Assembly (NCBI GenBank): GCA_963778905.1
Contig: CAVZWH010000007.1
Coordinates: 1-53,052 of the forward strand
Length of the DNA: 53,052 nucleotides
Reading direction: 5' to 3'
DNA from: Candidatus Staskawiczbacteria bacterium
GTDB taxonomy: Bacteria > Patescibacteriota > Minisyncoccia > Minisyncoccales > Staskawiczbacteraceae
Part shown: piece after piece, positions 4,298 to 41,728 of the stretch
Layout: each line of letters starts with the position of its first letter
Position numbering within the stretch: the stretch's first letter is position 1
Translations under genes and position numbers: made by a program
The notes under the pieces: generated by a model
Seen by the model: only the letters and a program-made list of their open reading frames with translations
What the model was told of the DNA's origin: nothing
The model's database searches: none

Positions 4298-5011
4298 TTA
4301 TTTGTTAATTAATAATATTTTTTCCAATGCATCCGTATATTTTCCTTGGCTGTACAAATCTTCAGCATCTGTCAATATTTTCTTTTGGTTATCTGTCAAA
4401 GTTGTTTTTTGCAAATCAGCAATTTCACTCTGCACAACCATCTGAGATAAATTTTGCACATCTGTGTTTTGGCTCAAATCTGTTCCCGGCACATCAGCTA
4501 ATGTTTTTAAGCTGCTTGCTATTTCTTTTATTGTCTGCGGGTCTTGTGTTGGATTTTCTTTCAAATTTTTAGCTAATTCTGATGCGTTTGTTCTTATCTC
4601 ATCTATCGCCGAAGGAATATTATTTGTTTTTCCTTCTTTGGCAACTTGCGCCAGATCATTTATTCTGTTGCTTAAAGTTGCCACATCTTGCTTCAAACCT
4701 ATTTGTCCTGTTAAAGCTGCCTGCGACTGTTCAGATAATTTTTTCACTGGAAACAATAAATCGCCCGGCAATGTATATCTGGCAAAACCAATCAATCCAA
4801 CAATAACAAAAACAAATGCGGCAAATGAATAAGCCATTTTTTTCTGGAAAAACACAGAAGAAAAAATATCCATAACTCCAACTGACTTTGCCACAATCGG
4901 CATTGGCTTTTGTTCATTCAAAATCTGCGATTTAAGCAAAACAGCCCATTCTTTTCTGGGCTTGATTTCTTTGAGTTGTTTTATTGAATTTATGAGCTCT
5001 TTTTGGTTCAT
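4298..5011 (-). CDS. Putative membrane-anchored anti-sigma factor (DUF5667-like)
   Basis: Directly downstream of ECF sigma. Cytoplasmic N-terminus, one TM helix, then a LPGDLLFPVKKLSE motif. Start chosen at MNQKELI (5011). Confidence 0.65.
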   Translation of the reverse strand: MNQKELINSIKQLKEIKPRKEWAVLLKSQILNEQKPMPIVAKSVGVMDIFSSVFFQKKMAYSFAAFVFVIVGLIGFARYTLPGDLLFPVKKLSEQSQAALTGQIGLKQDVATLSNRINDLAQVAKEGKTNNIPSAIDEIRTNASELAKNLKENPTQDPQTIKEIASSLKTLADVPGTDLSQNTDVQNLSQMVVQSEIADLQKTTLTDNQKKILTDAEDLYSQGKYTDALEKILLINK

Positions 5012-5062
5012 TTTGTGGGTATTAGTATGATGACGCTTCATAGAGCTGTTTTATTACACTTT

Positions 5063-5569
5063 TTATGACTCTTGAATAATATTTTTTAGATCCTTCAATC
5101 CCCTGTGCAACATTACTCTTATTGTGCCTTCTGGCTTATCTAATAATTTAGCTATATTGGCAATTGGCATATCTTCTAAATAATGCCAGATTATTACGTC
5201 CTGGTGCTCTTTTTTGAGCTTTTGTATCGCTTTTTTAACAATGTTTACGTCTGCGCTTAAAATCGCCTTGTCATGGGCGTTTGTCCTATCGTCGGTTATC
5301 TCTGGACTAGCATCAATTGACACTAATTTTGACCTACCCTTTTCTCTATAATGGTCTATTACTGCATTTCTGGCTATTTGATATAAAAAAGCGCCTGGAT
5401 TTTTTATATCATTGTTTTGATTTTGAAACGCTTCCCATCCCCTTAAAAACACTTTAGATGTAATATCCTCGGCTGTTTCTTGCGAATCCACTTTCAAATA
5501 AATAAACCTGTATATTTTATCAATATATTGGTCGTAAATAGAGCTGAATTGTTCATTAATGTTCTCCAT
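5063..5569 (-). CDS. ECF-type RNA polymerase sigma-70 factor
   Basis: Region 2 (YDQYIDKIYRFIY...AEDITSKVFLRGW...FLYQIARNAVIDHYR) and region 4 (LEDMPIANIAKLLDKPEGTIRVMLHRG); 168 aa. Confidence 0.93.
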   Translation of the reverse strand: MENINEQFSSIYDQYIDKIYRFIYLKVDSQETAEDITSKVFLRGWEAFQNQNNDIKNPGAFLYQIARNAVIDHYREKGRSKLVSIDASPEITDDRTNAHDKAILSADVNIVKKAIQKLKKEHQDVIIWHYLEDMPIANIAKLLDKPEGTIRVMLHRGLKDLKNIIQES

Positions 5570-13125: not shown

Positions 13126-15838
13126 ATTTTTTAGCTTTTGCTAATTTTGGCCTTTCCTGAATTCTTGGCAAAATTTTTGGCGTTTCAAAAATAATTTTTC
13201 CGTCATCTGCATCAATTAAAATTCTGCTGCCTTCTGCAATTTCATTGGTGACTATTTTAATTGACAAAGGATCCAAAATTAATCTTTGAATCACTCTTTT
13301 TAGCGGACGCGCTCCCAAATTTGGATCAAATCCTTCTTTCACCAAAAGCTCCTTTGCGCTTTGTGAAATTTCAATTTTTATTTCTTTGGCTGCCAAGCGC
13401 TTTTCAACTTTTGACAATTCCAAATCAACAATTTTTTTAATCTGTTCTTTTTGCAAATAATTAAATATCACAATTTCATCAATTCTGTTCAAAAATTCCG
13501 GGCGAAATGCGTCTCTCAACGAATCAAATATTTTTTCTCTCATTGATTCCCTTTCTGCCAATTCTTCTGTGGTGCTAAATCCAAGCGAAGACATTTTGTT
13601 AATAAAATCCGAGCCCAAATTAGAAGTCATTATAATAATTGTGTTTTTGAATGAAACTGCTCTGCCTTTTGAGTCTGTTAATCTGCCGTCTTCAAAAATT
13701 TGCAGTAAAATATTAAAAACATCCGGATGAGCTTTTTCAATTTCATCTAACAACAAAACAGAATACGGCCTGCGTCTTACTTTTTCTGTTAATTGACCGG
13801 CTTCCTCATATCCAACGTATCCTGGCGGAGAACCGATTATTTTTGAAACAGTGTGGCGCTCCATATATTCAGACATGTCCAATCTTATCATTGCTTTTTC
13901 GTCATCAAACAAAAATTCTGCCAAAGCCCTGGCTGTTTCGGTTTTTCCAACTCCTGTAGGTCCCAAAAATAGAAAAGATCCCAATGGTTTATCTTCTTCT
14001 GAAATTCCGGCTCTTGCCCTTCTTATTGCTCTTGAAATTGCTGAAATTGCTTCCTCTTGACCAACCACTCGCCTGTTCAGCGTGCCCTCCATTGTTTCTA
14101 ACTTTTTTGCTTCTTCTGTAATCAAGCGCATAACCGGAATTCCGGTCCAACGCGAAACAACTTTGGCAACTTCTTCCTCGGTCACTTCTTCTTTCATTAA
14201 TCTGTGCTCTTTTTGTATTTTTATTAATTTTTGTTCTATGGCAGCCAATTCTTTTAACAATTCCGGAATTTTTCCATATTTTATTTCAGCAACTTTTTCC
14301 AAATCAGCTTCTCTTTGGGCAATTTCTGTCTGATAAGAAAGATTATCAATTTTTTCTCTGATATCTTTTATTTTATTAATCAATTCTTTTTCAGCTCCCC
14401 ATCTTAATCTCAATGCTTTTGTTTTTTCATTCAAATCAGCCAATTCCCTGGAAATTACTTTGAGCCGTCTTTCAGATCCTTTTTCTTTTTTTAACGCCTG
14501 CTTTTCAATTTCTAATTTTGTAATTTCCTCGTTAAATTTTTCCAACTCCTGCGGGTCGGATTCGTTTTCTAATCTCAAAGCCGATGCCGCTTCGTCCATC
14601 AAGTCAACTGCTTTGTCCGGCAAAAATCGGTCAGCAATATATCTTGAAGCCAAATCAACCGCGGCCTTGATCGCCGAGTCCTTTATTTTTACTCCGTGGT
14701 GCAATTCATATTTTTCTTTGATTCCCCGTAAAATTGCGGTGGCGTCTTCGGCGTTCGGCTCCTGCACATAAATCGGCTGAAATCTTCTTTCCAAAGCAGG
14801 ATCTTTTTCAATATATTTTTGATATTCTTTCAAGGTTGTAGCTCCAATTGCCCTTAATTCTCCGCGAGACAAAGCCGGCTTTAACAAATTTGAAGCATCA
14901 ATTGCTCCCTCGGCGGCTCCCGCTCCAACCAACGTATGCAGCTCGTCAATAAACAAAATATATTTTCCAGCAGCTCTGTTCACTTCTTTTAGCAAGGCCT
15001 TAATTCTTGTTTCAAATTCTCCTCTGTATTTTGTTCCGGCAATTATGGCCCCCAAATCCAAAGAAATTATTTCTTTATCTTTCAAAAATTCCGGCACATT
15101 TCCGCGCGCAATTCTTTGCGCAAACCCTTCCACAATTGCTGTTTTTCCAACTCCGGCTTCTCCAATTAAAACCGGATTATTTTTTGTTCTGCGCGAAATT
15201 ATCTGCATTAATCTGCGTATTTCATTATCTCTGCCAATTATCGGATCAATTTTTCCTGCAGCTGCCAAGTTAGTTAAATTTCTTGTATATTTTTCTATTA
15301 CCTGATATTTTGCTTCAGGTTCTGCGTCTGTAATTCTTTGACCGCCTCTTATCTGCGACAAAATTTTCATAACTGCCTCGTAATCAAGTTTTGAATTTTT
15401 GAAACTATTTGCCTCGGACCCAAAGGGTACCCCCGCCAAAAAATTAATTTTTTCCAAAATATCTTTTGCCGTAGATTTTGTGTCCACTAAAGCCAAAAAT
15501 AAATGCTCAACTGAAATAAATTCGTCGTTCATTTTTATTGCTTCCTGCCTGGCTCTGTCTAAAACTTTTGCCATATCCTGCGTTAAATAAAACTGACCGA
15601 AAGCCTGTTGAGCAGCAATTGTCGGAATTTTCGCAATTTGCGTATCAATTTTTTTGGCTAAGGCATCTGCATCAATTCCAAGTTTTTGCAAAATTGTAAT
15701 TACAATTGAGCCTTCCTGCAAAAGCAAAGCAGACAACAAATGCAAGGCATCAATTTGCGCCTGCCCTTTTTCCTGAGCCAATTGCTGAGCCTGCATTAGC
15801 GCATCCTGAGCTTTATTTGTAAAATTATTTCCATTCAC
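13124..15838 (-). CDS. clpB: ATP-dependent chaperone ClpB
   Basis: Two AAA+ domains (GEAGVGKT/FIDELH; GPTGVGKT/LLDEIEKAH), coiled-coil M domain, Clp-N domain. The GTG start is supplied by the MITE end. Confidence 0.96.
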   Translation of the reverse strand: MNGNNFTNKAQDALMQAQQLAQEKGQAQIDALHLLSALLLQEGSIVITILQKLGIDADALAKKIDTQIAKIPTIAAQQAFGQFYLTQDMAKVLDRARQEAIKMNDEFISVEHLFLALVDTKSTAKDILEKINFLAGVPFGSEANSFKNSKLDYEAVMKILSQIRGGQRITDAEPEAKYQVIEKYTRNLTNLAAAGKIDPIIGRDNEIRRLMQIISRRTKNNPVLIGEAGVGKTAIVEGFAQRIARGNVPEFLKDKEIISLDLGAIIAGTKYRGEFETRIKALLKEVNRAAGKYILFIDELHTLVGAGAAEGAIDASNLLKPALSRGELRAIGATTLKEYQKYIEKDPALERRFQPIYVQEPNAEDATAILRGIKEKYELHHGVKIKDSAIKAAVDLASRYIADRFLPDKAVDLMDEAASALRLENESDPQELEKFNEEITKLEIEKQALKKEKGSERRLKVISRELADLNEKTKALRLRWGAEKELINKIKDIREKIDNLSYQTEIAQREADLEKVAEIKYGKIPELLKELAAIEQKLIKIQKEHRLMKEEVTEEEVAKVVSRWTGIPVMRLITEEAKKLETMEGTLNRRVVGQEEAISAISRAIRRARAGISEEDKPLGSFLFLGPTGVGKTETARALAEFLFDDEKAMIRLDMSEYMERHTVSKIIGSPPGYVGYEEAGQLTEKVRRRPYSVLLLDEIEKAHPDVFNILLQIFEDGRLTDSKGRAVSFKNTIIIMTSNLGSDFINKMSSLGFSTTEELAERESMREKIFDSLRDAFRPEFLNRIDEIVIFNYLQKEQIKKIVDLELSKVEKRLAAKEIKIEISQSAKELLVKEGFDPNLGARPLKRVIQRLILDPLSIKIVTNEIAEGSRILIDADDGKIIFETPKILPRIQERPKLAKAKK
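15416..15433 (+). repeat. 18-nt micro-hairpin repeat, in frame in clpB (GVPFGS)
   Basis: GGACCCAAAGGGTACCCC. Confidence 0.75.
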
Positions 15839-15969
15839 CCCGTTAGAAGTCTATCTTAATATAACAAAAAGTTAACTTTAGATAGACCTTGTTTACTTTA
15901 CTATTCCCCGTTATTACCGAGCAGAAAAAATTTAAATAAAATTTTTTCTGCCCAAGACTTCTAACGGGG
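15838..15969. mobile_element. MITE-like element, 132 bp, 15-bp TIR, 4-bp TSD
   Basis: CCCCGTTAGAAGTCT...AGACTTCTAACGGGG flanked by TTCA (15834-15837) and TTCA (15970-15973). Confidence 0.85.
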
Positions 15970-22176: not shown

Positions 22177-22277
22177 ATTTATCTATTATACCTTATATCT
22201 TGAAAAATTTTAATATTCTGGTAATATTATTCTGTAGTACCAACCATTCTTGATCATTGACATGGAGGAACCAGGCA

Positions 22278-22862
22278 ATGTTATTTGCACTTGAAGAAAT
22301 AATGAAAACGGAAATGTTTTGGGCGCCGGCATTAGGCGCCACAGTTTTGATTTTGATTCTGGCTATAATAGCTTTAAATCTTAAATTCAACCCGCCGACA
22401 AATCAAAAAGAAGAAAAGGTAAAGCCAAAAACGATTATCGTTTTCTGCTCTGACCCGAGGTTTCAGGCCGAATTTGCCAAGTTTGTTAGAAAAAGGCTTG
22501 GACTGGGAGATGGAGAATTTGTGCCAATCCTTACTGCTGGAGGTCCGGCTGCTTTTGCCAACACAGCCAAACGCTGCTATGACTTCAAGTTTCTGAAAGG
22601 ACAAATTGAATTCTTCTCGGAACATTTTCCGTCAATAGAAGAAATTGTTTTGGTCGGCCACCAGGACTGCGGATATTATAACGAAATCCTTGAGTTGCCT
22701 GGCCAAGAAAAGGAAGACCTGATACAAGCCAGGCGGACTCTCGGCACGTTTTGGGTCAAATCAGTTTGGCTCTACTATGCCAAGTTTTCGTCTGATGACC
22801 AGACCCAAATAATATTTGACCAAGTGCTTGCGCCCTCGGCGGCCCAAGTATCTATGCCATAA
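22278..22862 (+). CDS. Membrane-anchored beta-carbonic-anhydrase-like protein
   Basis: Zn-ligand pattern CSDPR...HQDCG; one TM. GGAGG SD 9 nt upstream of ATG 22278. Lone plus-strand, GC-richer gene. Confidence 0.6.
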   Translation: MLFALEEIMKTEMFWAPALGATVLILILAIIALNLKFNPPTNQKEEKVKPKTIIVFCSDPRFQAEFAKFVRKRLGLGDGEFVPILTAGGPAAFANTAKRCYDFKFLKGQIEFFSEHFPSIEEIVLVGHQDCGYYNEILELPGQEKEDLIQARRTLGTFWVKSVWLYYAKFSSDDQTQIIFDQVLAPSAAQVSMP

Positions 22863-24396: not shown

Positions 24397-24450
24397 ATTA
24401 GCTTATGGTAAGATTTTTTGCGGCCGCAAAAAATCTTACCATAAGCTAAT
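24397..24450. repeat. 54-bp perfect palindrome without spacer
   Basis: ATTAGCTTATGGTAAGATTTTTTGCGG|CCGCAAAAAATCTTACCATAAGCTAAT. Confidence 0.9.
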
Positions 24451-27509: not shown

Positions 27510-27607
27510 CCCCGTTAGAAATTATATTGTTCGTGAAATCTGTGGAAAACTTTTAACAAAAATAATTTTTCAGCTTTTTTCCGTTTTTACTATGATTTCT
27601 AACGGGG
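27510..27607. mobile_element. MITE-like element, 98 bp, 13-bp TIR, 4-bp TSD
   Basis: CCCCGTTAGAAAT...ATTTCTAACGGGG flanked by CAAG (27506-27509) and CAAG (27608-27611). Confidence 0.85.
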
Positions 27608-37922: not shown

Positions 37923-39941
37923 ATGAAAAGTTTAGTAATAGTAGAAAGCCCCACAAAGGCAAAAACAATTCAAAAATTTTTAGGCGACACTTTTATTATC
38001 AAGTCGTCTTTCGGTCACGTGAGAGATTTGCCAAAAAGAGAATTTGGAGTAGATGTTGAAAAAAACTTTGAGCCAAAATATGTTATTCCTCCAAAAGCTA
38101 AAAAAGTTATCGCTGAATTAAAAAAGGATTCTGCAAAAGCAGACAATACAATTCTGGCAACTGACGAAGACCGCGAAGGAGAATCAATTGCCTGGCACTT
38201 GCAGCAGGCCTTAAAATTAAAAAATCCACAAAGAATTGTATTCCATGAAATTACAAAAACAGCAATTGAAAATGCTTTAGAAAAACCGAGGCACATTGAT
38301 ATGAATTTGGTTGACGCCCAGCAGGCAAGAAGAATTTTAGACAGAATCGTGGGCTATAAACTCTCTCCATTTTTATGGAAAAAAGTTGCCAAAGGGTTGT
38401 CAGCGGGCAGAGTGCAATCTGTGGCTGTAAGATTAATCGTTGAAAAAGAAAGAGAAATTGAAAAATTTGTCCCAACAGAATATTGGAGTATTGAAGCAAT
38501 TTTGAAAAACGACCCACAAGTGGGTACCCCGAAAGAATTTGTCGCAAAACTTGTGAAAATTGACGGACTGGTAAAGAATAAATCAGAGGCAGATAAAATT
38601 TTACAGGATTTGAATAATGCAGATTATATTGTAGATTCTGTAGAAAAAAAAGAAACAAAAAGATATCCTGCTCCCCCGTTCACAACCAGCACCCTGCAGC
38701 AGGCCTCATGGCAAAGATTTAAGTTTTCTGCAAAAATGACAATGTCTTTGGCGCAACGGCTTTACGAAGAAGGAAATATTACTTATCACAGAACTGATTC
38801 GTTAAATTTGTCTGAAACGTCATTGGCTGCTGCAAAAGATTTTATTTCAGAAAAATATGGAAAAAATTATTGGACCGGAAAAATTGTAAAATATAAAACA
38901 AAAAGTAATTCGGCGCAGGAAGCGCACGAAGCTATAAGGCCAGCTTATGCTGCCCGCACACCAGAATCATTAAAAAATTTAGATTCAAGACAATTAAAAC
39001 TTTACACATTAATTTGGCAAAGATTTATCGCCTGCCAAATGGCGCCGGCTATACTTGATTCAGTTGCCGCTGATATCAATGCAAAAAATTATACTTTCAG
39101 AGCCAATGGCCAGACCTTAAGGTTTGACGGATTTTTGAAAGTTTATCCGACAAAATTTGAGGAAACAGAACTGCCTGATTTGGAAAAGGGACACAAATTG
39201 GACTTTGTAAAATTAGACTCTCTGCAGCATTTTACAGAGCCACCGGCAAGATACACCGAAGCCAGTTTAATAAAAACTTTGGAAAAATTTGGCATTGGCA
39301 GACCTTCAACTTATGCTCCAACTTTGTCTACAATCCAAGACAGAAATTATGTTGAAAAAAATGAACAAAAAAGATTTGTGCCCACAGAAATGGGAACCAT
39401 TGTGAATGACGTTTTAGTCAAAAATTTTCCTGAAATTGTTGATATAGATTTTACGGTAAAAATGGAAAAAGAATTAGACGAGATAGCTGACGGAAAAGAC
39501 ACCTGGCAAAAAACCTGCAAAGATTTTTATACTCCGTTTGCCAAAAACCTGGAAAACAAATATAAAGAAGTAAAGAAAGAAAACCTTACAGAAAAGACCG
39601 ATAAAATCTGTCCAAAATGCGGCTCTCCAATAATTGAACGAATGGGAAGATTTGGAAGATTTTATGCCTGCTCTAAATTTCCCGAATGCAAATATACAGA
39701 ATCTATAGAAGATAAAAACAAAAATTTAGGAATTAAATGTCCAAAATGCAAAGAAGGAGATATTGTTGCTAGAAAAACTAAGCGAAAAAAAATATTTTAT
39801 GGCTGCAATAAATTTCCAAAATGCGACTTTGCTTTATGGGACAAGCCGATAAATGAATTTTGTCCGAAGTGCAACTCAATACTGACCCAAAAAGGCAAAC
39901 AAATAAAATGTTCTAATAAGGAGTGTGATTATGTCAAATGA
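37923..39941 (+). CDS. topA: DNA topoisomerase I
   Basis: IVESPTKAKTI, ATDEDREGE, SAGRVQS, ITYHRTD, AQEAHEAIRP; three C-terminal Zn ribbons. Confidence 0.97.
   Translation: MKSLVIVESPTKAKTIQKFLGDTFIIKSSFGHVRDLPKREFGVDVEKNFEPKYVIPPKAKKVIAELKKDSAKADNTILATDEDREGESIAWHLQQALKLKNPQRIVFHEITKTAIENALEKPRHIDMNLVDAQQARRILDRIVGYKLSPFLWKKVAKGLSAGRVQSVAVRLIVEKEREIEKFVPTEYWSIEAILKNDPQVGTPKEFVAKLVKIDGLVKNKSEADKILQDLNNADYIVDSVEKKETKRYPAPPFTTSTLQQASWQRFKFSAKMTMSLAQRLYEEGNITYHRTDSLNLSETSLAAAKDFISEKYGKNYWTGKIVKYKTKSNSAQEAHEAIRPAYAARTPESLKNLDSRQLKLYTLIWQRFIACQMAPAILDSVAADINAKNYTFRANGQTLRFDGFLKVYPTKFEETELPDLEKGHKLDFVKLDSLQHFTEPPARYTEASLIKTLEKFGIGRPSTYAPTLSTIQDRNYVEKNEQKRFVPTEMGTIVNDVLVKNFPEIVDIDFTVKMEKELDEIADGKDTWQKTCKDFYTPFAKNLENKYKEVKKENLTEKTDKICPKCGSPIIERMGRFGRFYACSKFPECKYTESIEDKNKNLGIKCPKCKEGDIVARKTKRKKIFYGCNKFPKCDFALWDKPINEFCPKCNSILTQKGKQIKCSNKECDYVK
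38510..38530 (+). repeat. 21-nt micro-hairpin repeat, in frame in topA (DPQVGTP)
   Basis: CGACCCACAAGTGGGTACCCC. Confidence 0.7.
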
Positions 39942-41728
39942 CATACAAAAAATAATAAAAAGAAGTTCAGATCCAAAATTAATTGAGTCTGCTTTTGAGT
40001 TTGCCAAAGAAGCCTACAAAGATAAAAATCGCATATCCGGAGAAAATTACATTTATCATGCTACCAGGGTGGCTTTGGCTCTTGATAAAATGGGTTTAGA
40101 CCCGACAACAATTGCTTTTGGAATATTGCACGACGTGTTGGATGACCTGCCCAGCTCTGCAAAAAATGTTGAAGCAAAAGAGATTGAAAAAAAATTCGAC
40201 AAAGAAACAGCCAAGCTGGTAGAAAAAATTTCAGAACTCGGCAAAGTCCGCTATTCTTTGTCAATCAATATAAAAGATAAAAAAACACTTACAAGAGAAA
40301 AAATAGAAAATTTGAGAAGAATGTTTTTAGCTATAGCCGGAGATTTAAGGGTGGTTTTAGTAGAACTTATTTCAAGATTAGACACCTTAAATTTTTTGCG
40401 AGATTTGCCGGAAGACCAGCGAAAGTTATATGCTCTTGAAACTTTACAGGTTTTTGTTCCTGTTGCCAACAGATTGGGTTTAAGTGAAATCAGAAGAAGT
40501 CTTGAAGATATAGCTTTTTCCTATTTATTCCCGGAAAAATTTAAGCAGCTGAAAGAAAACATCAAAGAACAATACGAAGAAAGAGAAAAATATCTCAAAA
40601 AATTTATTCCGCACTTGAGAAAAATTTTCAAAAAAGAAAGGGTAAAAGTTTTGGGTATAAATTACAGGGCAAAATCATATTGGAGCACCTATCAAAAATT
40701 AGTTAAACACAATATGGATTTTGAAAAAATCCACGATTTGCTGGCTTTAAGAATAATTGTTGCTGACATTGAAAGCTGTTATAAAGTTTTGGGCATAATT
40801 CACAAACATTTTAAGCCCATTTCCGAGGAAATCAACGATTACATTGCCAAGCCAAAATCCAATGGATACAGATCGTTGCACACTACAATTTTTCCCGAAG
40901 AAGGAAAAATAACTGAAATTCAAATAAGAACCGATGAAATGAACAAAGAGGCCGAATACGGCATTTGCGCGCACTGGTCATACAAAGAAAAAATAGATCT
41001 TAAAAAAGAAAGCAAAAACTTTGAATGGATGAACACCGTTAGAAGTCAGGGGGACTTGGAAAAAATACAAAAAAAGCAAACTTCTAACGGGGTAAAAGAT
41101 GTGCCGGAATTTTGGAAAACTTTCAAAATTGACTTTTTTACAAACCAAATTTTTACTTTTACCCCAAAAGGAGATGTTATTGTTTTACCAAAAGGTTCAA
41201 GCGCAGTTGATTTTGCTTATGCTGTGCACTCAGATATCGGGAATCACTGCGAGTTCGGCAAAAATCGGCGGCAAAATAGTCCCGCTTGATCATGTTTTAG
41301 AAAATGGAAATGTGGTGGAAGTCGCTGTAAATAAAAATAAAAATCCAAGCAAAGATTGGTTAAGATTTGTCAAAACATCTTTAGCAAAATCACATATAAA
41401 AAAACTCACCGCACAAAACGAAACTGGATTTAAGTTTCCTATTCCCGGTTTTATAAAAAGGAAATTTGCTGAAATTTCCGAGGCCGCAAAAAAGAAAAAG
41501 GAAGAAAAAAATTTGATTAAAAAAGGTGGAATGAGGCATATTTATTTGGCGGGCCAAAAAGGAATGCTAATTCACATCGCAAAATGTTGCAATCCCCAGC
41601 CCGGAGACAAAGTTTCAGCTTATCTTTCCCAACACAGAGCCGCTGTTTTGCACAGAACCTCGTGCAGTAATTTCAAAAAAATTGCAGAAAAATTCCCGGA
41701 AAAAATAATCGATGCTTCGTGGGAGTAG
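39931..41728 (+). CDS. rel: RelA/SpoT-family (p)ppGpp synthetase/hydrolase, split by a +1 frameshift at about 41254
   Basis: HD motif (LHDVLDD), synthetase (DLLALRII, PKSNGYRSLHTT, EIQIRT), TGS (VDFAYAVHSDIGNHC). Removing one T from GAG-T-TCG joins SAKIGGKIVPLDHVLENG of the 41099-41728 ORF. Confidence 0.88.
41034..41092. mobile_element. MITE-like element, 59 bp, in frame inside rel
   Basis: CACCGTTAGAAGT...ACTTCTAACGGGG flanked by TGAA / TAAA; element plus one TSD = 63 bp = 21 codons. Confidence 0.8.

What the first reader, a model, noticed from the sequence alone, without database searches (positions are those of the whole stretch)
41030..41096. MITE translated as a 21-aa insert inside Rel
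Seen: element plus TSD = 63 bp; removal gives FEWM-KDVPEFW, while presence adds NTVRSQGDLEKIQKKQTSNGV in the synthetase-TGS linker. One TIR and one TSD mismatch indicate an older insertion than the other two copies. Inference: this family contributes protein sequence; peptides such as (P/T)VR...SNGV should mark other insertions.
Basis: partly seen in the sequence, partly recalled or inferred. Interest (0 to 1): 0.65.

Follow-up and report, generated by a model that had tools for sequence, protein, structure and literature searches.

The report
Mobile mini-element translated inside Rel
A 59-base mobile DNA element sits in frame inside the stringent-response enzyme Rel of an ultra-small (CPR) bacterium and adds 21 amino acids to a flexible linker; at least 14 related Rel genes carry the same insert in intact form, so it is tolerated and read as protein.

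Summary
At 41034-41092 there is a 59-bp element with 13-bp inverted ends (CaCCGTTAGAAGT / ACTTCTAACGGGG) and 4-bp flanking repeats (TGAA/TAAA). It belongs to an 11-copy family in this 741-kb Staskawiczbacteria genome.

- **Empty sites:** 105 of the 120 best database matches, the window's own protein among them, and the nine genus orthologues aligned without it, are exactly 21 residues shorter here (FEW-x-K...).
- **Not private to this genome:** 14 other Rel orthologues, 11 of them with exactly 21 residues, carry the same insert (consensus NPVRSQGELEKIQKKQTSNGV) in intact 598-628-aa proteins. The comparative evidence shows it is translated.
- **Position:** it lies in a predicted disordered linker between the synthetase and TGS domains.
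- **History:** carriers are scattered on the Rel tree (one clade rejected, p = 0.0007). The inverted ends are conserved even at four-fold synonymous sites, mainly in genomes that still hold the family.
- **Likely parent:** the ends match ~281-bp units whose only gene is an 85-aa GIY-YIG nuclease.
- **Caveat:** the window's own rel has an extra T at 41254/41255 that breaks the frame downstream. I could not check this against reads.

This is a new case of a known phenomenon (Rickettsia RPE-like) in an undescribed element family.

The parts
39925..41289 (+). rel (long RSH) reading frame as assembled: HD hydrolase, synthetase, linker with the insert, and the first half of TGS. It ends at a premature stop caused by the frameshift.
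   Evidence: ORF list. Pfam HD_4, RelA_SpoT and TGS on the product. 68-80% identical to 576-628-aa orthologues.
41030..41033 (+). Left copy of the target-site duplication (TGAA; ancestrally TAAA).
   Evidence: empty sites read TGG GTA AAA. G013 and P0002 have TAAA on both sides.
41034..41046 (+). Left terminal inverted repeat CaCCGTTAGAAGT (12/13 to the family consensus). It encodes (N)TVRS.
41047..41079 (+). 33-nt interior of the element. It encodes QGDLEKIQKKQ. This interior was found only inside rel genes.
   Evidence: unique in the window. (both metagenome hits are in rel). (the only other 59-bp copy in the genus is in G013 rel).
41080..41092 (+). Right terminal inverted repeat ACTTCTAACGGGG (13/13). 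It encodes TSNG(V).
41093..41096 (+). Right copy of the target-site duplication (TAAA).
41254..41255 (+). TT where orthologues have one T (GAG-TCG-GCA = E-S-A). The single extra base shifts the rel frame by +1.
41256..41728 (+). Remainder of rel (rest of TGS, helical and zinc-finger/RIS region), open and conserved in the +1 frame.
   Evidence: it aligns residue for residue with intact orthologues to the common C-terminus ...DASWE.
15838..15969 (.). Sibling copy, 132 bp, perfect 14-bp ends, flanks TTCA/TTCA.
27510..27607 (.). Sibling copy, 98 bp, variant ends CCCCGTTAGAAAT, flanks CAAG/CAAG.
   Evidence: The same variant end bounds a GIY-YIG unit in G016.

Best explanation
**What it is.** A gene-less 59-bp member of a family of hairpin-ended mini mobile elements inserted into the rel codons for the linker between the synthetase and TGS domains. 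The family has ends CCCCGTTAGAAGT and duplicates a 4-bp target, usually T-N-N-A. The insertion duplicated TAAA.

**Why the gene survived.** Element plus duplication is 63 bp. The entry frame reads the ends as N-P-V-R-S and T-S-N-G-V, avoiding the TAG and TAA that lie in the other frames of the ends. So the gene stayed open, and the element is translated as a 21-residue extension of a disordered, length-tolerant linker.

**History.**
- The insertion is not recent in this genome. The same insert, with the same Rel-specific interior, sits in intact rel genes of at least 14 other Staskawiczbacteria-like lineages.
- Its divergence tracks that of the host gene.
- Its distribution on the Rel tree is patchy. 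Three routes could produce this, and I cannot tell them apart: repeated precise loss by slippage between the 4-bp repeats across the hairpin, short-patch recombination, or re-invasion of the same site.

**Function and mobilisation (inferred).**
- I read the insert as a tolerated passenger, not a proven functional module.
- Its ends are kept intact at the nucleotide level in genomes that still carry the family. This suggests the family's trans-acting enzyme still interacts with it.
- That enzyme is probably the 85-aa GIY-YIG nuclease of the ~281-bp full-length units.

**This genome.** As assembled, rel also has a 1-base insertion downstream that would truncate the protein within TGS.
For: **Family and insertion signature**
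- Inverted ends and flank repeats. Eleven copies in the genome.
- The family is present in 11 of 26 genus genomes, always as inward-facing pairs with flank repeats.

**Empty sites**
- Exact empty sites in genus orthologues, and in P0071, the 93%-identical sister of the insert-bearing P0002.

**Translation**
- 14 other orthologues carry the insert in 588-628-aa ORFs that keep TGS and RIS downstream.
- Every length variant is a multiple of 3 (7, 12, 21, 22 and 28 aa).
- Proportion of non-synonymous differences (pN) is 0.12 and of synonymous differences (pS) 0.30 inside the insert.

**Position in the protein**
- In the AlphaFold2 model of P0002 the insert (367-387) lies in the pLDDT<50, structure-free segment 365-393, between the last synthetase helix and TGS.
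- B. subtilis Rel has a naturally longer linker at this place.

**Co-divergence with the host gene**
- Mantel r = 0.40, p = 0.04, within the range of control windows.

**Conservation of the ends**
- Identity at four-fold sites is 0.79 in the end codons, 0.49 in the interior and 0.44 in the rest of the gene. The rare codons CCC and GGG are retained.
- End changes are 0, 1 and 1 in genomes with 16, 15 and 11 family half-sites. They are 5 and 2, plus one decayed remnant, in genomes with 1, 0 and 0 half-sites.

**Shared ends with nuclease units**
- 274-282-bp GIY-YIG units share the ends and the 4-bp flank repeats.
Against: **Translation in this organism**
- There is no direct evidence (no reads, transcripts or peptides).
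- The window's own rel is frameshifted. In this genome the product may be truncated, or the gene may be decaying.

**History**
- Carriers are not one clade on the Rel tree (AU p = 0.0007; at least 5 changes forced by well-supported branches).
- The insert's synonymous divergence (0.30) is far below the gene's (0.70). A simple 'one old neutral insertion' model does not fit.

**Weak points**
- The link between intact ends and presence of the family rests on six genomes.
- No source copy of the 59-bp variant was found outside rel.
- No movement or enzyme activity was observed.
Confidence: 0.85

Rival explanations
1. The insert is a recurrent, site-specific invader. The 59-bp element, or the allele that carries it, has entered the same rel site several times, recently compared with the divergence of the host lineages. 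It would have done so by targeted insertion or by very short-patch recombination.
For: - Carriers are scattered on the tree, and a single clade is rejected.
- P0002 carries a pristine copy: perfect ends, perfect TAAA/TAAA, interior equal to the consensus. Its 93%-identical sister P0071 and the next relatives are empty.
- Third-position identity is 0.78 in the insert. The maximum over 320 gene windows is 0.70, and the immediate flanks show 0.56-0.60.
- Six differences cluster in the 30 nt just upstream of the insert between P0002 and P0071. This hints at a short conversion tract.
- In this genus the two genomes with the insert are the two with the most family copies.
Against: - The family's target is only a loose 4-mer (TGAA/TTCA, TCAA/TTGA, TAAA). 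That cannot explain hitting one site.
- The 59-bp interior was found only in rel, so there is no donor copy.
- Insert distances track gene distances as ordinary gene windows do.
- The sister pair P0009/P0118 shows insert divergence equal to gene divergence.
- Averaged over pairs, flanks show no hitch-hiking.
Confidence: 0.3
2. The insert has been co-opted. Either the 21-residue peptide or the 13-bp mRNA/DNA hairpin now contributes to Rel function or regulation, and that is why it is conserved.
For: - The insert peptide is as conserved as the enzyme average (first- and second-position identity 0.83-1.0 in the ends and 0.82-0.87 in the interior, against 0.79/0.89 for the gene).
- It is more conserved than the native linker residues next to it.
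- The RNA hairpin is stable: -17.5 kcal/mol, z = -3.8.
Against: - About 88% of close orthologues do without it.
- Decayed or shortened versions persist in intact genes (G015, P0097, P0011, P0008).
- The segment is predicted disordered.
- By my inspection of the sequences, 10 of 16 changes in the ends break the stem, 4 are wobble-compatible, and only one pair is compensated. There is no covariation support for an RNA structure.
- End conservation appears to depend on the family being present in the genome. That points to the element's biology and not to Rel's.
Confidence: 0.15
3. In this particular genome rel is a decaying pseudogene. Here the insert is simply tolerated junk in a dead gene and is not part of a working protein.
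For: An extra T at 41254/41255 gives a stop 10 codons later. All 22 relatives examined have open 576-633-aa frames.
Against: - The downstream +1 frame is fully open for 157 codons and conserved to the last residue. The lesion is therefore very recent, a strain variant, or an assembly error.
- The insert itself long predates it and sits in intact genes elsewhere.
Confidence: 0.3
4. The 21 residues are native Rel linker sequence that most lineages lost. The palindromic ends are coincidence.
For: Canonical Rel proteins have a longer linker at this point.
Against: - 25 of 26 end bases match a dispersed repeat family.
- 4-bp direct repeats flank the insert.
- Empty sites are exactly element plus one repeat shorter.
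- There is no sequence similarity to the B. subtilis linker.
Confidence: 0.02

Closest known systems
Rickettsia palindromic elements (RPE; Ogata et al. 2000, as reviewed in PMC10969869)
   Same: Short palindromic mobile repeats inserted in frame into housekeeping genes. They are read through as extra peptide segments and are compatible with the fold because they sit at surface or linker positions.
   Different: - There is no sequence relation.
- RPEs are about 100-150 bp, while this copy is 59 bp.
- In this genome only 1 of 11 copies is an internal in-frame insert, whereas nearly half of RPEs are.
- This family has clear 4-bp target duplications and a candidate GIY-YIG partner.
Classical bacterial MITEs (Correia/NEMIS, ERIC, RUP, BOX)
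   Same: Short, non-coding and dispersed, with terminal inverted repeats and target-site duplications. Empty sites exist in relatives, and some copies are intragenic.
   Different: - The copies share only about 13-18 terminal bases. Their interiors are largely unrelated and range from 36 to 132 bp.
- The only longer units with the same ends encode a GIY-YIG nuclease, not a DDE transposase.
Ssn family GIY-YIG single-strand nucleases with their NTS/SRM hairpin repeats (PMC11893778)
   Same: A single-domain GIY-YIG protein of about 85-100 aa whose gene is bracketed by copies of a hairpin-forming repeat. The same repeat is dispersed through the genome.
   Different: - Ssn repeats were described as binding and cleavage sites that modulate transformation, not as mobile elements with target duplications.
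- Membership of the CPR nucleases in the Ssn clade (cd10448) was not testable here.
- No in-frame protein inserts were reported in the parts of the paper I read.
Long RSH enzymes Rel/RelA/SpoT (e.g. B. subtilis Rel, PDB 6yxa)
   Same: The host gene has the HD, synthetase, TGS and RIS/zinc-finger architecture and the conserved catalytic motifs.
   Different: The Staskawiczbacteria enzymes are short (about 577 aa) and have a shorter native synthetase-TGS linker. The element lengthens that linker by 21 residues.

Membership tests
Bacterial MITE (miniature inverted-repeat transposable element) | Short (<~300 bp) with no coding capacity of its own | tested here: met
   59 bp here. Family copies are 36-132 bp without ORFs.
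Bacterial MITE (miniature inverted-repeat transposable element) | Terminal inverted repeats shared by dispersed copies | tested here: met
   CCCCGTTAGAAGT / ACTTCTAACGGGG in 11 copies of this genome and in 11 of 26 genus genomes.
Bacterial MITE (miniature inverted-repeat transposable element) | Target-site duplication, and empty sites in relatives | tested here: met
   4-bp direct repeats at nearly all copies. Exact empty rel sites in genus orthologues and in P0071.
Bacterial MITE (miniature inverted-repeat transposable element) | Derived from, and mobilised by, an autonomous IS that has the same ends and a transposase | tested here: inconclusive
   The same or near-same ends bound 274-282-bp units that encode only an 85-86-aa GIY-YIG protein. 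No DDE transposase element with these ends was found. Mobilisation was not observed.
RPE-like in-frame translated repeat | Insert keeps the host frame open, and the host protein remains intact and conserved downstream | tested here: met
   14 orthologues of 588-628 aa carry the insert and have TGS plus RIS downstream. The window's own copy has an unrelated frameshift downstream.
RPE-like in-frame translated repeat | Direct evidence of translation (peptides) or transcription | not testable with these tools
Long RSH (Rel/SpoT) enzyme | HD_4, RelA_SpoT, TGS and RIS domains in order | tested here: met
   Pfam families precomputed on the product and its orthologues. E = 5.7e-109 to B. subtilis Rel 6yxa.
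Ssn-type GIY-YIG nuclease with flanking hairpin repeats | Single-domain GIY-YIG protein whose gene is flanked on both sides by its cognate repeat | tested here: met
   PF01541 scores 53-56 bits, over the cut-off. The ORFs lie inside inverted-end pairs. Weak match to the UPF0213 protein 1zg2.
Ssn-type GIY-YIG nuclease with flanking hairpin repeats | Membership of the cd10448 clade, and site-specific ssDNA cleavage at the repeat | not testable with these tools
The paper was read.
Intein or self-splicing intron (considered as an alternative way to keep the gene working) | Splicing motifs or a catalytic RNA core; typical size over 130 aa or over 200 nt | tested here: not met
   63 nt / 21 aa. The segment is disordered in the model, and its peptide-level conservation is that of ordinary coding sequence.

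The most novel reading that the evidence does not exclude
The rel insert is not a dead relic. It is still 'seen' by the family's trans-acting GIY-YIG nuclease.

One version: in genomes that keep the nuclease, both ends must stay matched, because a half-competent pair in an essential gene would be cut without being resolved. That gives nucleotide-level purifying selection on the ends.

The other version: the element repeatedly excises precisely and re-enters this one safe site. Rel would then be a long-term refuge for a mini mobile element that moves without a classical transposase.
Probability: 0.2. Interest if true: 0.8.

Novelty: new variant of a known kind. Interest (0 to 1): 0.58.

Why it matters
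- It shows that the tiny hairpin-ended elements of CPR bacteria can become protein sequence in a core regulatory enzyme. They persist there across species, much as RPEs do in Rickettsia, but in streamlined free-living or epibiotic genomes where 'junk' is thought to be scarce.
- It warns annotators that lineage-specific loops in CPR proteins may be mobile DNA. In relatives, a second Rel loop carries at least one further palindromic insert, and other inserts whose nature I did not establish.
- The contrast between conserved ends and a drifting interior, seen mainly where the family survives, is a natural handle on how these elements and their GIY-YIG partner act.

Tried and rejected
**Classical IS parent.** The genome has no distant pairs of the ends. 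A scan of 401 genomes of the order for exact ends 150-320 bp apart gave only nested or tandem short copies. A looser end pattern then found the GIY-YIG units.

**Donor copies of the 59-bp interior.**
- It is unique in the window.
- The genus has no other 59-bp copy apart from the one in G013 rel.
- A metagenome scan gave 2 hits, both in rel.
- A degenerate genome scan gave 4 hits, all in rel.

**Hitch-hiking of flanks among insert-bearing alleles.** None was seen on average. The only hint is a local cluster of differences next to the insert in P0002 against P0071.

**RNA-structure covariation in the ends.** Not supported. Most changes are disruptive, by my inspection.

**Composition as the cause of low synonymous divergence.** K/E/Q-rich gene windows reach 0.70 third-position identity, so the interior (0.72) is explained. 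The ends are not (0.79 at four-fold sites against 0.44).

**Programmed frameshift.** Rejected: there is no slippery site or 0-frame stop at the shift, and all relatives have a single frame.

Full report
**Observation.**
- Reading 40800-41340 shows the described structure.
  - Left flank TGAA (41030-33).
  - Left end CACCGTTAGAAGT (41034-46).
  - A 33-nt A-rich interior.
  - Right end ACTTCTAACGGGG (41080-92).
  - Right flank TAAA (41093-96).
- Element plus one flank repeat is 63 bp. In the rel frame (ORF 39925-41289) it reads NTVRSQGDLEKIQKKQTSNGV between FEWM and KDVPEFW.
- The end motif is far from chance. CCGTTAGAAGT occurs exactly six times in the window, as three inward-facing pairs, and GTTAGAAG occurs 5 times against 1.08 expected.
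- The other two pairs bound a 132-bp element at 15838-15969 (flanks TTCA/TTCA) and a 98-bp element at 27510-27607 (flanks CAAG/CAAG).

**The family.**
- The genome is 741 kb in 31 contigs, 36.5% G+C. Database names of the homologues place it in Candidatus Staskawiczbacteria.
- It holds 11 bounded copies of 59-132 bp.
  - All have ends CCCCGTTAGAA(G/A)T.
  - Nearly all have 4-bp direct repeats of the type TGAA/TTCA, TCAA/TTGA or TAAA.
  - Interiors are only partly related. Many contain a terminator-like hairpin and internal CCCCGTTA repeats.
- Eleven of 26 genomes of the genus carry the ends, always as pairs. Copies there range down to 36-40 bp.
- In this genome only the rel copy is an internal in-frame insert. 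The others are intergenic or touch gene starts or stops.
- A peptide-signature scan finds Rel plus two adjacent pilin-like genes that read the element as PVRS...LLTG.

**Is it an insertion? Yes.**
- Nine genus orthologues aligned across the site, 64-80% identical by the genome search, lack it. Their DNA reads TTT GAA TGG (GTA/ATG/CTT) AAA ..., exactly the window sequence minus element and one repeat.
- Among the 120 best database matches, 105 have the short linker.

**It is not private to this genome.**
- Fourteen other Rel orthologues carry an insert at the same position.
  - Eleven have exactly 21 residues, with consensus NPVRSQGELEKIQKKQTSNGV. The consensus codons AAC CCC GTT AGA AGT ... 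ACT TCT AAC GGG G are the perfect ends.
  - Variants have 28, 22 and 7 residues.
  - A 12-residue remnant, NTLRNQNSDLTE, is present in genus genome G015.
- All of these sit in full-length 588-628-aa proteins with TGS and RIS domains downstream.
- The DNA of ten of them was retrieved. G013 and P0002 have perfect ends and perfect TAAA/TAAA repeats.
- P0071 is 93% identical in DNA to P0002 and is a clean empty site.
- Three facts show the insert is read as protein in those organisms.
  - The downstream domains stay in frame.
  - All length variants are multiples of three.
  - Inside the insert the proportion of non-synonymous differences (pN) is 0.12 and of synonymous differences (pS) is 0.30.

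**Where it sits.**
- An AlphaFold2 model of P0002 was built from a 115-sequence alignment (mean pLDDT 80).
- It places residues 365-393, which contain the insert at 367-387, in the only long segment with pLDDT below 50 and no secondary structure.
- That segment lies between the last synthetase helix and the helix and strands that open TGS.
- B. subtilis Rel (6yxa) has a naturally longer linker at this point. Extra length here is plausibly harmless.

**History: the part that is not simple.**
- On a Rel tree built without the insert columns, carriers are scattered. Parsimony needs 10 changes, and well-supported branches force at least 5.
- Holding the 12 full-length carriers (the window's own among them) together costs 277 log-likelihood units (AU p = 0.0007).
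- Synonymous divergence inside the insert is 0.30, against 0.70 in the rest of the gene.
- Third-position identity is 0.78 in the insert. That is higher than in any of 320 gene windows (maximum 0.70). It falls to background (0.56-0.60) in the adjacent 10 codons, so flanks do not hitch-hike.
- Splitting the insert shows that the excess lies in the ends. Four-fold sites are 0.79 identical in the ten end codons, 0.49 in the interior and 0.44 in the gene. The rare codons CCC and GGG are retained.
- Insert distances correlate with gene distances about as ordinary gene windows do (Mantel r = 0.40, p = 0.04; control mean 0.53). The sister pair P0009/P0118 has insert divergence equal to gene divergence. 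This argues for long co-descent, not independent captures from one pool.
- The 33-nt interior was found only inside rel: in the window, the genus, JGI metagenomes and species-representative genomes. No donor copy exists for repeated transposition.
- For the six genomes where the whole assembly could be searched, intact ends go with presence of the family.

| Family half-sites in genome | Changes in the ends of the rel insert |
|---|---|
| 16 | 0 |
| 15 | 1 |
| 11 | 1 |
| 1 | 5 |
| 0 | 2 |
| 0 | decayed remnant |

- Interior changes do not differ between the two groups.
- My reading has three parts.
  - There was a single origin, older than many of these species.
  - Carriers were lost repeatedly, or the allele moved by short-patch exchange. 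Slippage between the 4-bp repeats across a 13-bp hairpin is a well-known route to precise deletion. A cluster of 6 differences in the 30 nt upstream of the insert in P0002 against P0071 hints at conversion.
  - There is nucleotide-level constraint on the ends while the family is alive.
- Recurrent site-specific re-invasion remains possible, at about 30%.

**Partner enzyme.**
- I followed a lead from earlier notes of this scan and tested it.
- This genome has three small GIY-YIG ORFs (PF01541, 53-56 bits). Each lies inside its own inverted-repeat pair.
- One is a 282-bp unit with ends CCCCGTTAAAAATC.
- In the genus, 274-281-bp units have ends CCCCGTTAGAAGC or CCCCGTTAGAAAT, 4-bp flank repeats (TGAA/TGAA, TTCA/TTCA), and an 85-86-aa GIY-YIG ORF as their only gene. 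CCCCGTTAGAAAT is exactly the variant at 27510.
- The protein matches the UPF0213 protein 1zg2 weakly. It matches no curated NCBIfam family above cut-off.
- The nearest described system is the Ssn family: single-domain GIY-YIG single-strand nucleases flanked by their hairpin repeats (PMC11893778). In the parts of that paper I read, mobility, target duplications and protein inserts were not described.
- No paper in the searched library linked MITEs to Patescibacteria.
- In-frame translated palindromic repeats are known from Rickettsia (RPEs; PMC10969869).

**Caveat for this window.**
- Orthologues read ...CAY TGC GAR TCN GCA AAA ATH GGC... (HCESAKIGG). The window has GAG TTCG GCA, with one extra T at 41254/41255.
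- The frame therefore ends at 41289. The conserved remainder continues in the +1 frame to 41728.
- The downstream frame is fully open and conserved. The lesion is therefore very recent, a strain variant or an assembly error.
- The insert lies upstream of the shift, so it would be translated either way.

**Verdict.**
- The thing is a new example of a known phenomenon, a mobile palindromic repeat fixed in frame in a housekeeping gene. It occurs in an undescribed, GIY-YIG-linked mini-element family of CPR bacteria.
- Two unexpected features deserve a larger survey: the patchy phylogenetic distribution, and the family-dependent conservation of the ends.

Noticed in passing
window 41254-41255: rel carries one extra T compared with all orthologues. 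This gives a +1 frameshift and a stop at 41287-41289. The rest of the gene stays open and conserved in the next frame.
   Followed up: partly
L013 (G013), L014 (G007), L029 (P0004), L005 (G014); Rel loop HTT(I/V)F..EE|GK, equivalent to window ~40893-40902: A second insertion hot spot in Rel of relatives. An 81-bp (27-aa) element with its own inverted ends (TCCTmCCAArTTTTGCC / GGCAAAAyTTGGkAGGA) is present in P0004, P0015/G013, P0094 and G007. A GC-rich 15-aa insert (GLPRPLRRSEASGKA) is present in G014/P0105, and another 27-aa insert in P0088. This window has the empty site.
   Followed up: partly
own genome contigs C30:18743-19024, C30:~22250-22540, C29:~4930-5220 (outside the window): Three ~280-295-bp units, each a single 85-93-aa GIY-YIG ORF enclosed by its own inverted repeat. 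The ends of the first (CCCCGTTAAAAATC) are close to those of the rel element.
   Followed up: partly
L019 and L020 (G016:C10:94496-94535, C11:44583-44618): Minimal family members of only 40 and 36 bp, consisting of the two ends and a 10-14-nt loop, still flanked by 4-bp repeats (CGTG, TCAA).
   Followed up: no
L038-L040 (G393, G299): Nested copies: one element inserted inside the end region of another (e.g. ...GGCTAA-CCCCGTTAGAAAT...ATTTCTAACGGGG-CTAGGACTTCTAACGGGG). This suggests a preference for landing in or next to existing copies.
   Followed up: no
own genome C24:11431-11557 and C14:23925-24053: In some copies the host gene's stop codon lies in the element or in its flank repeat. In C24 the TAG within CCCCGTTAGAAG ends a 490-codon frame. 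In C14 a TAA lies in the TAAA repeat.
   Followed up: no
window 24397-24450: A perfect 54-bp palindrome with 27-nt arms and no spacer: ATTAGCTTATGGTAAGATTTTTTGCGG / CCGCAAAAAATCTTACCATAAGCTAAT.
   Followed up: no
window 41020-41033 compared with 41083-41096: The sequence just left of the insertion point (TTTGAATGG-xTAAA in empty sites) resembles the element's own right end plus flank (TTCTAACGGGG-TAAA). This may be a mimic of an end that attracts insertion.
   Followed up: no
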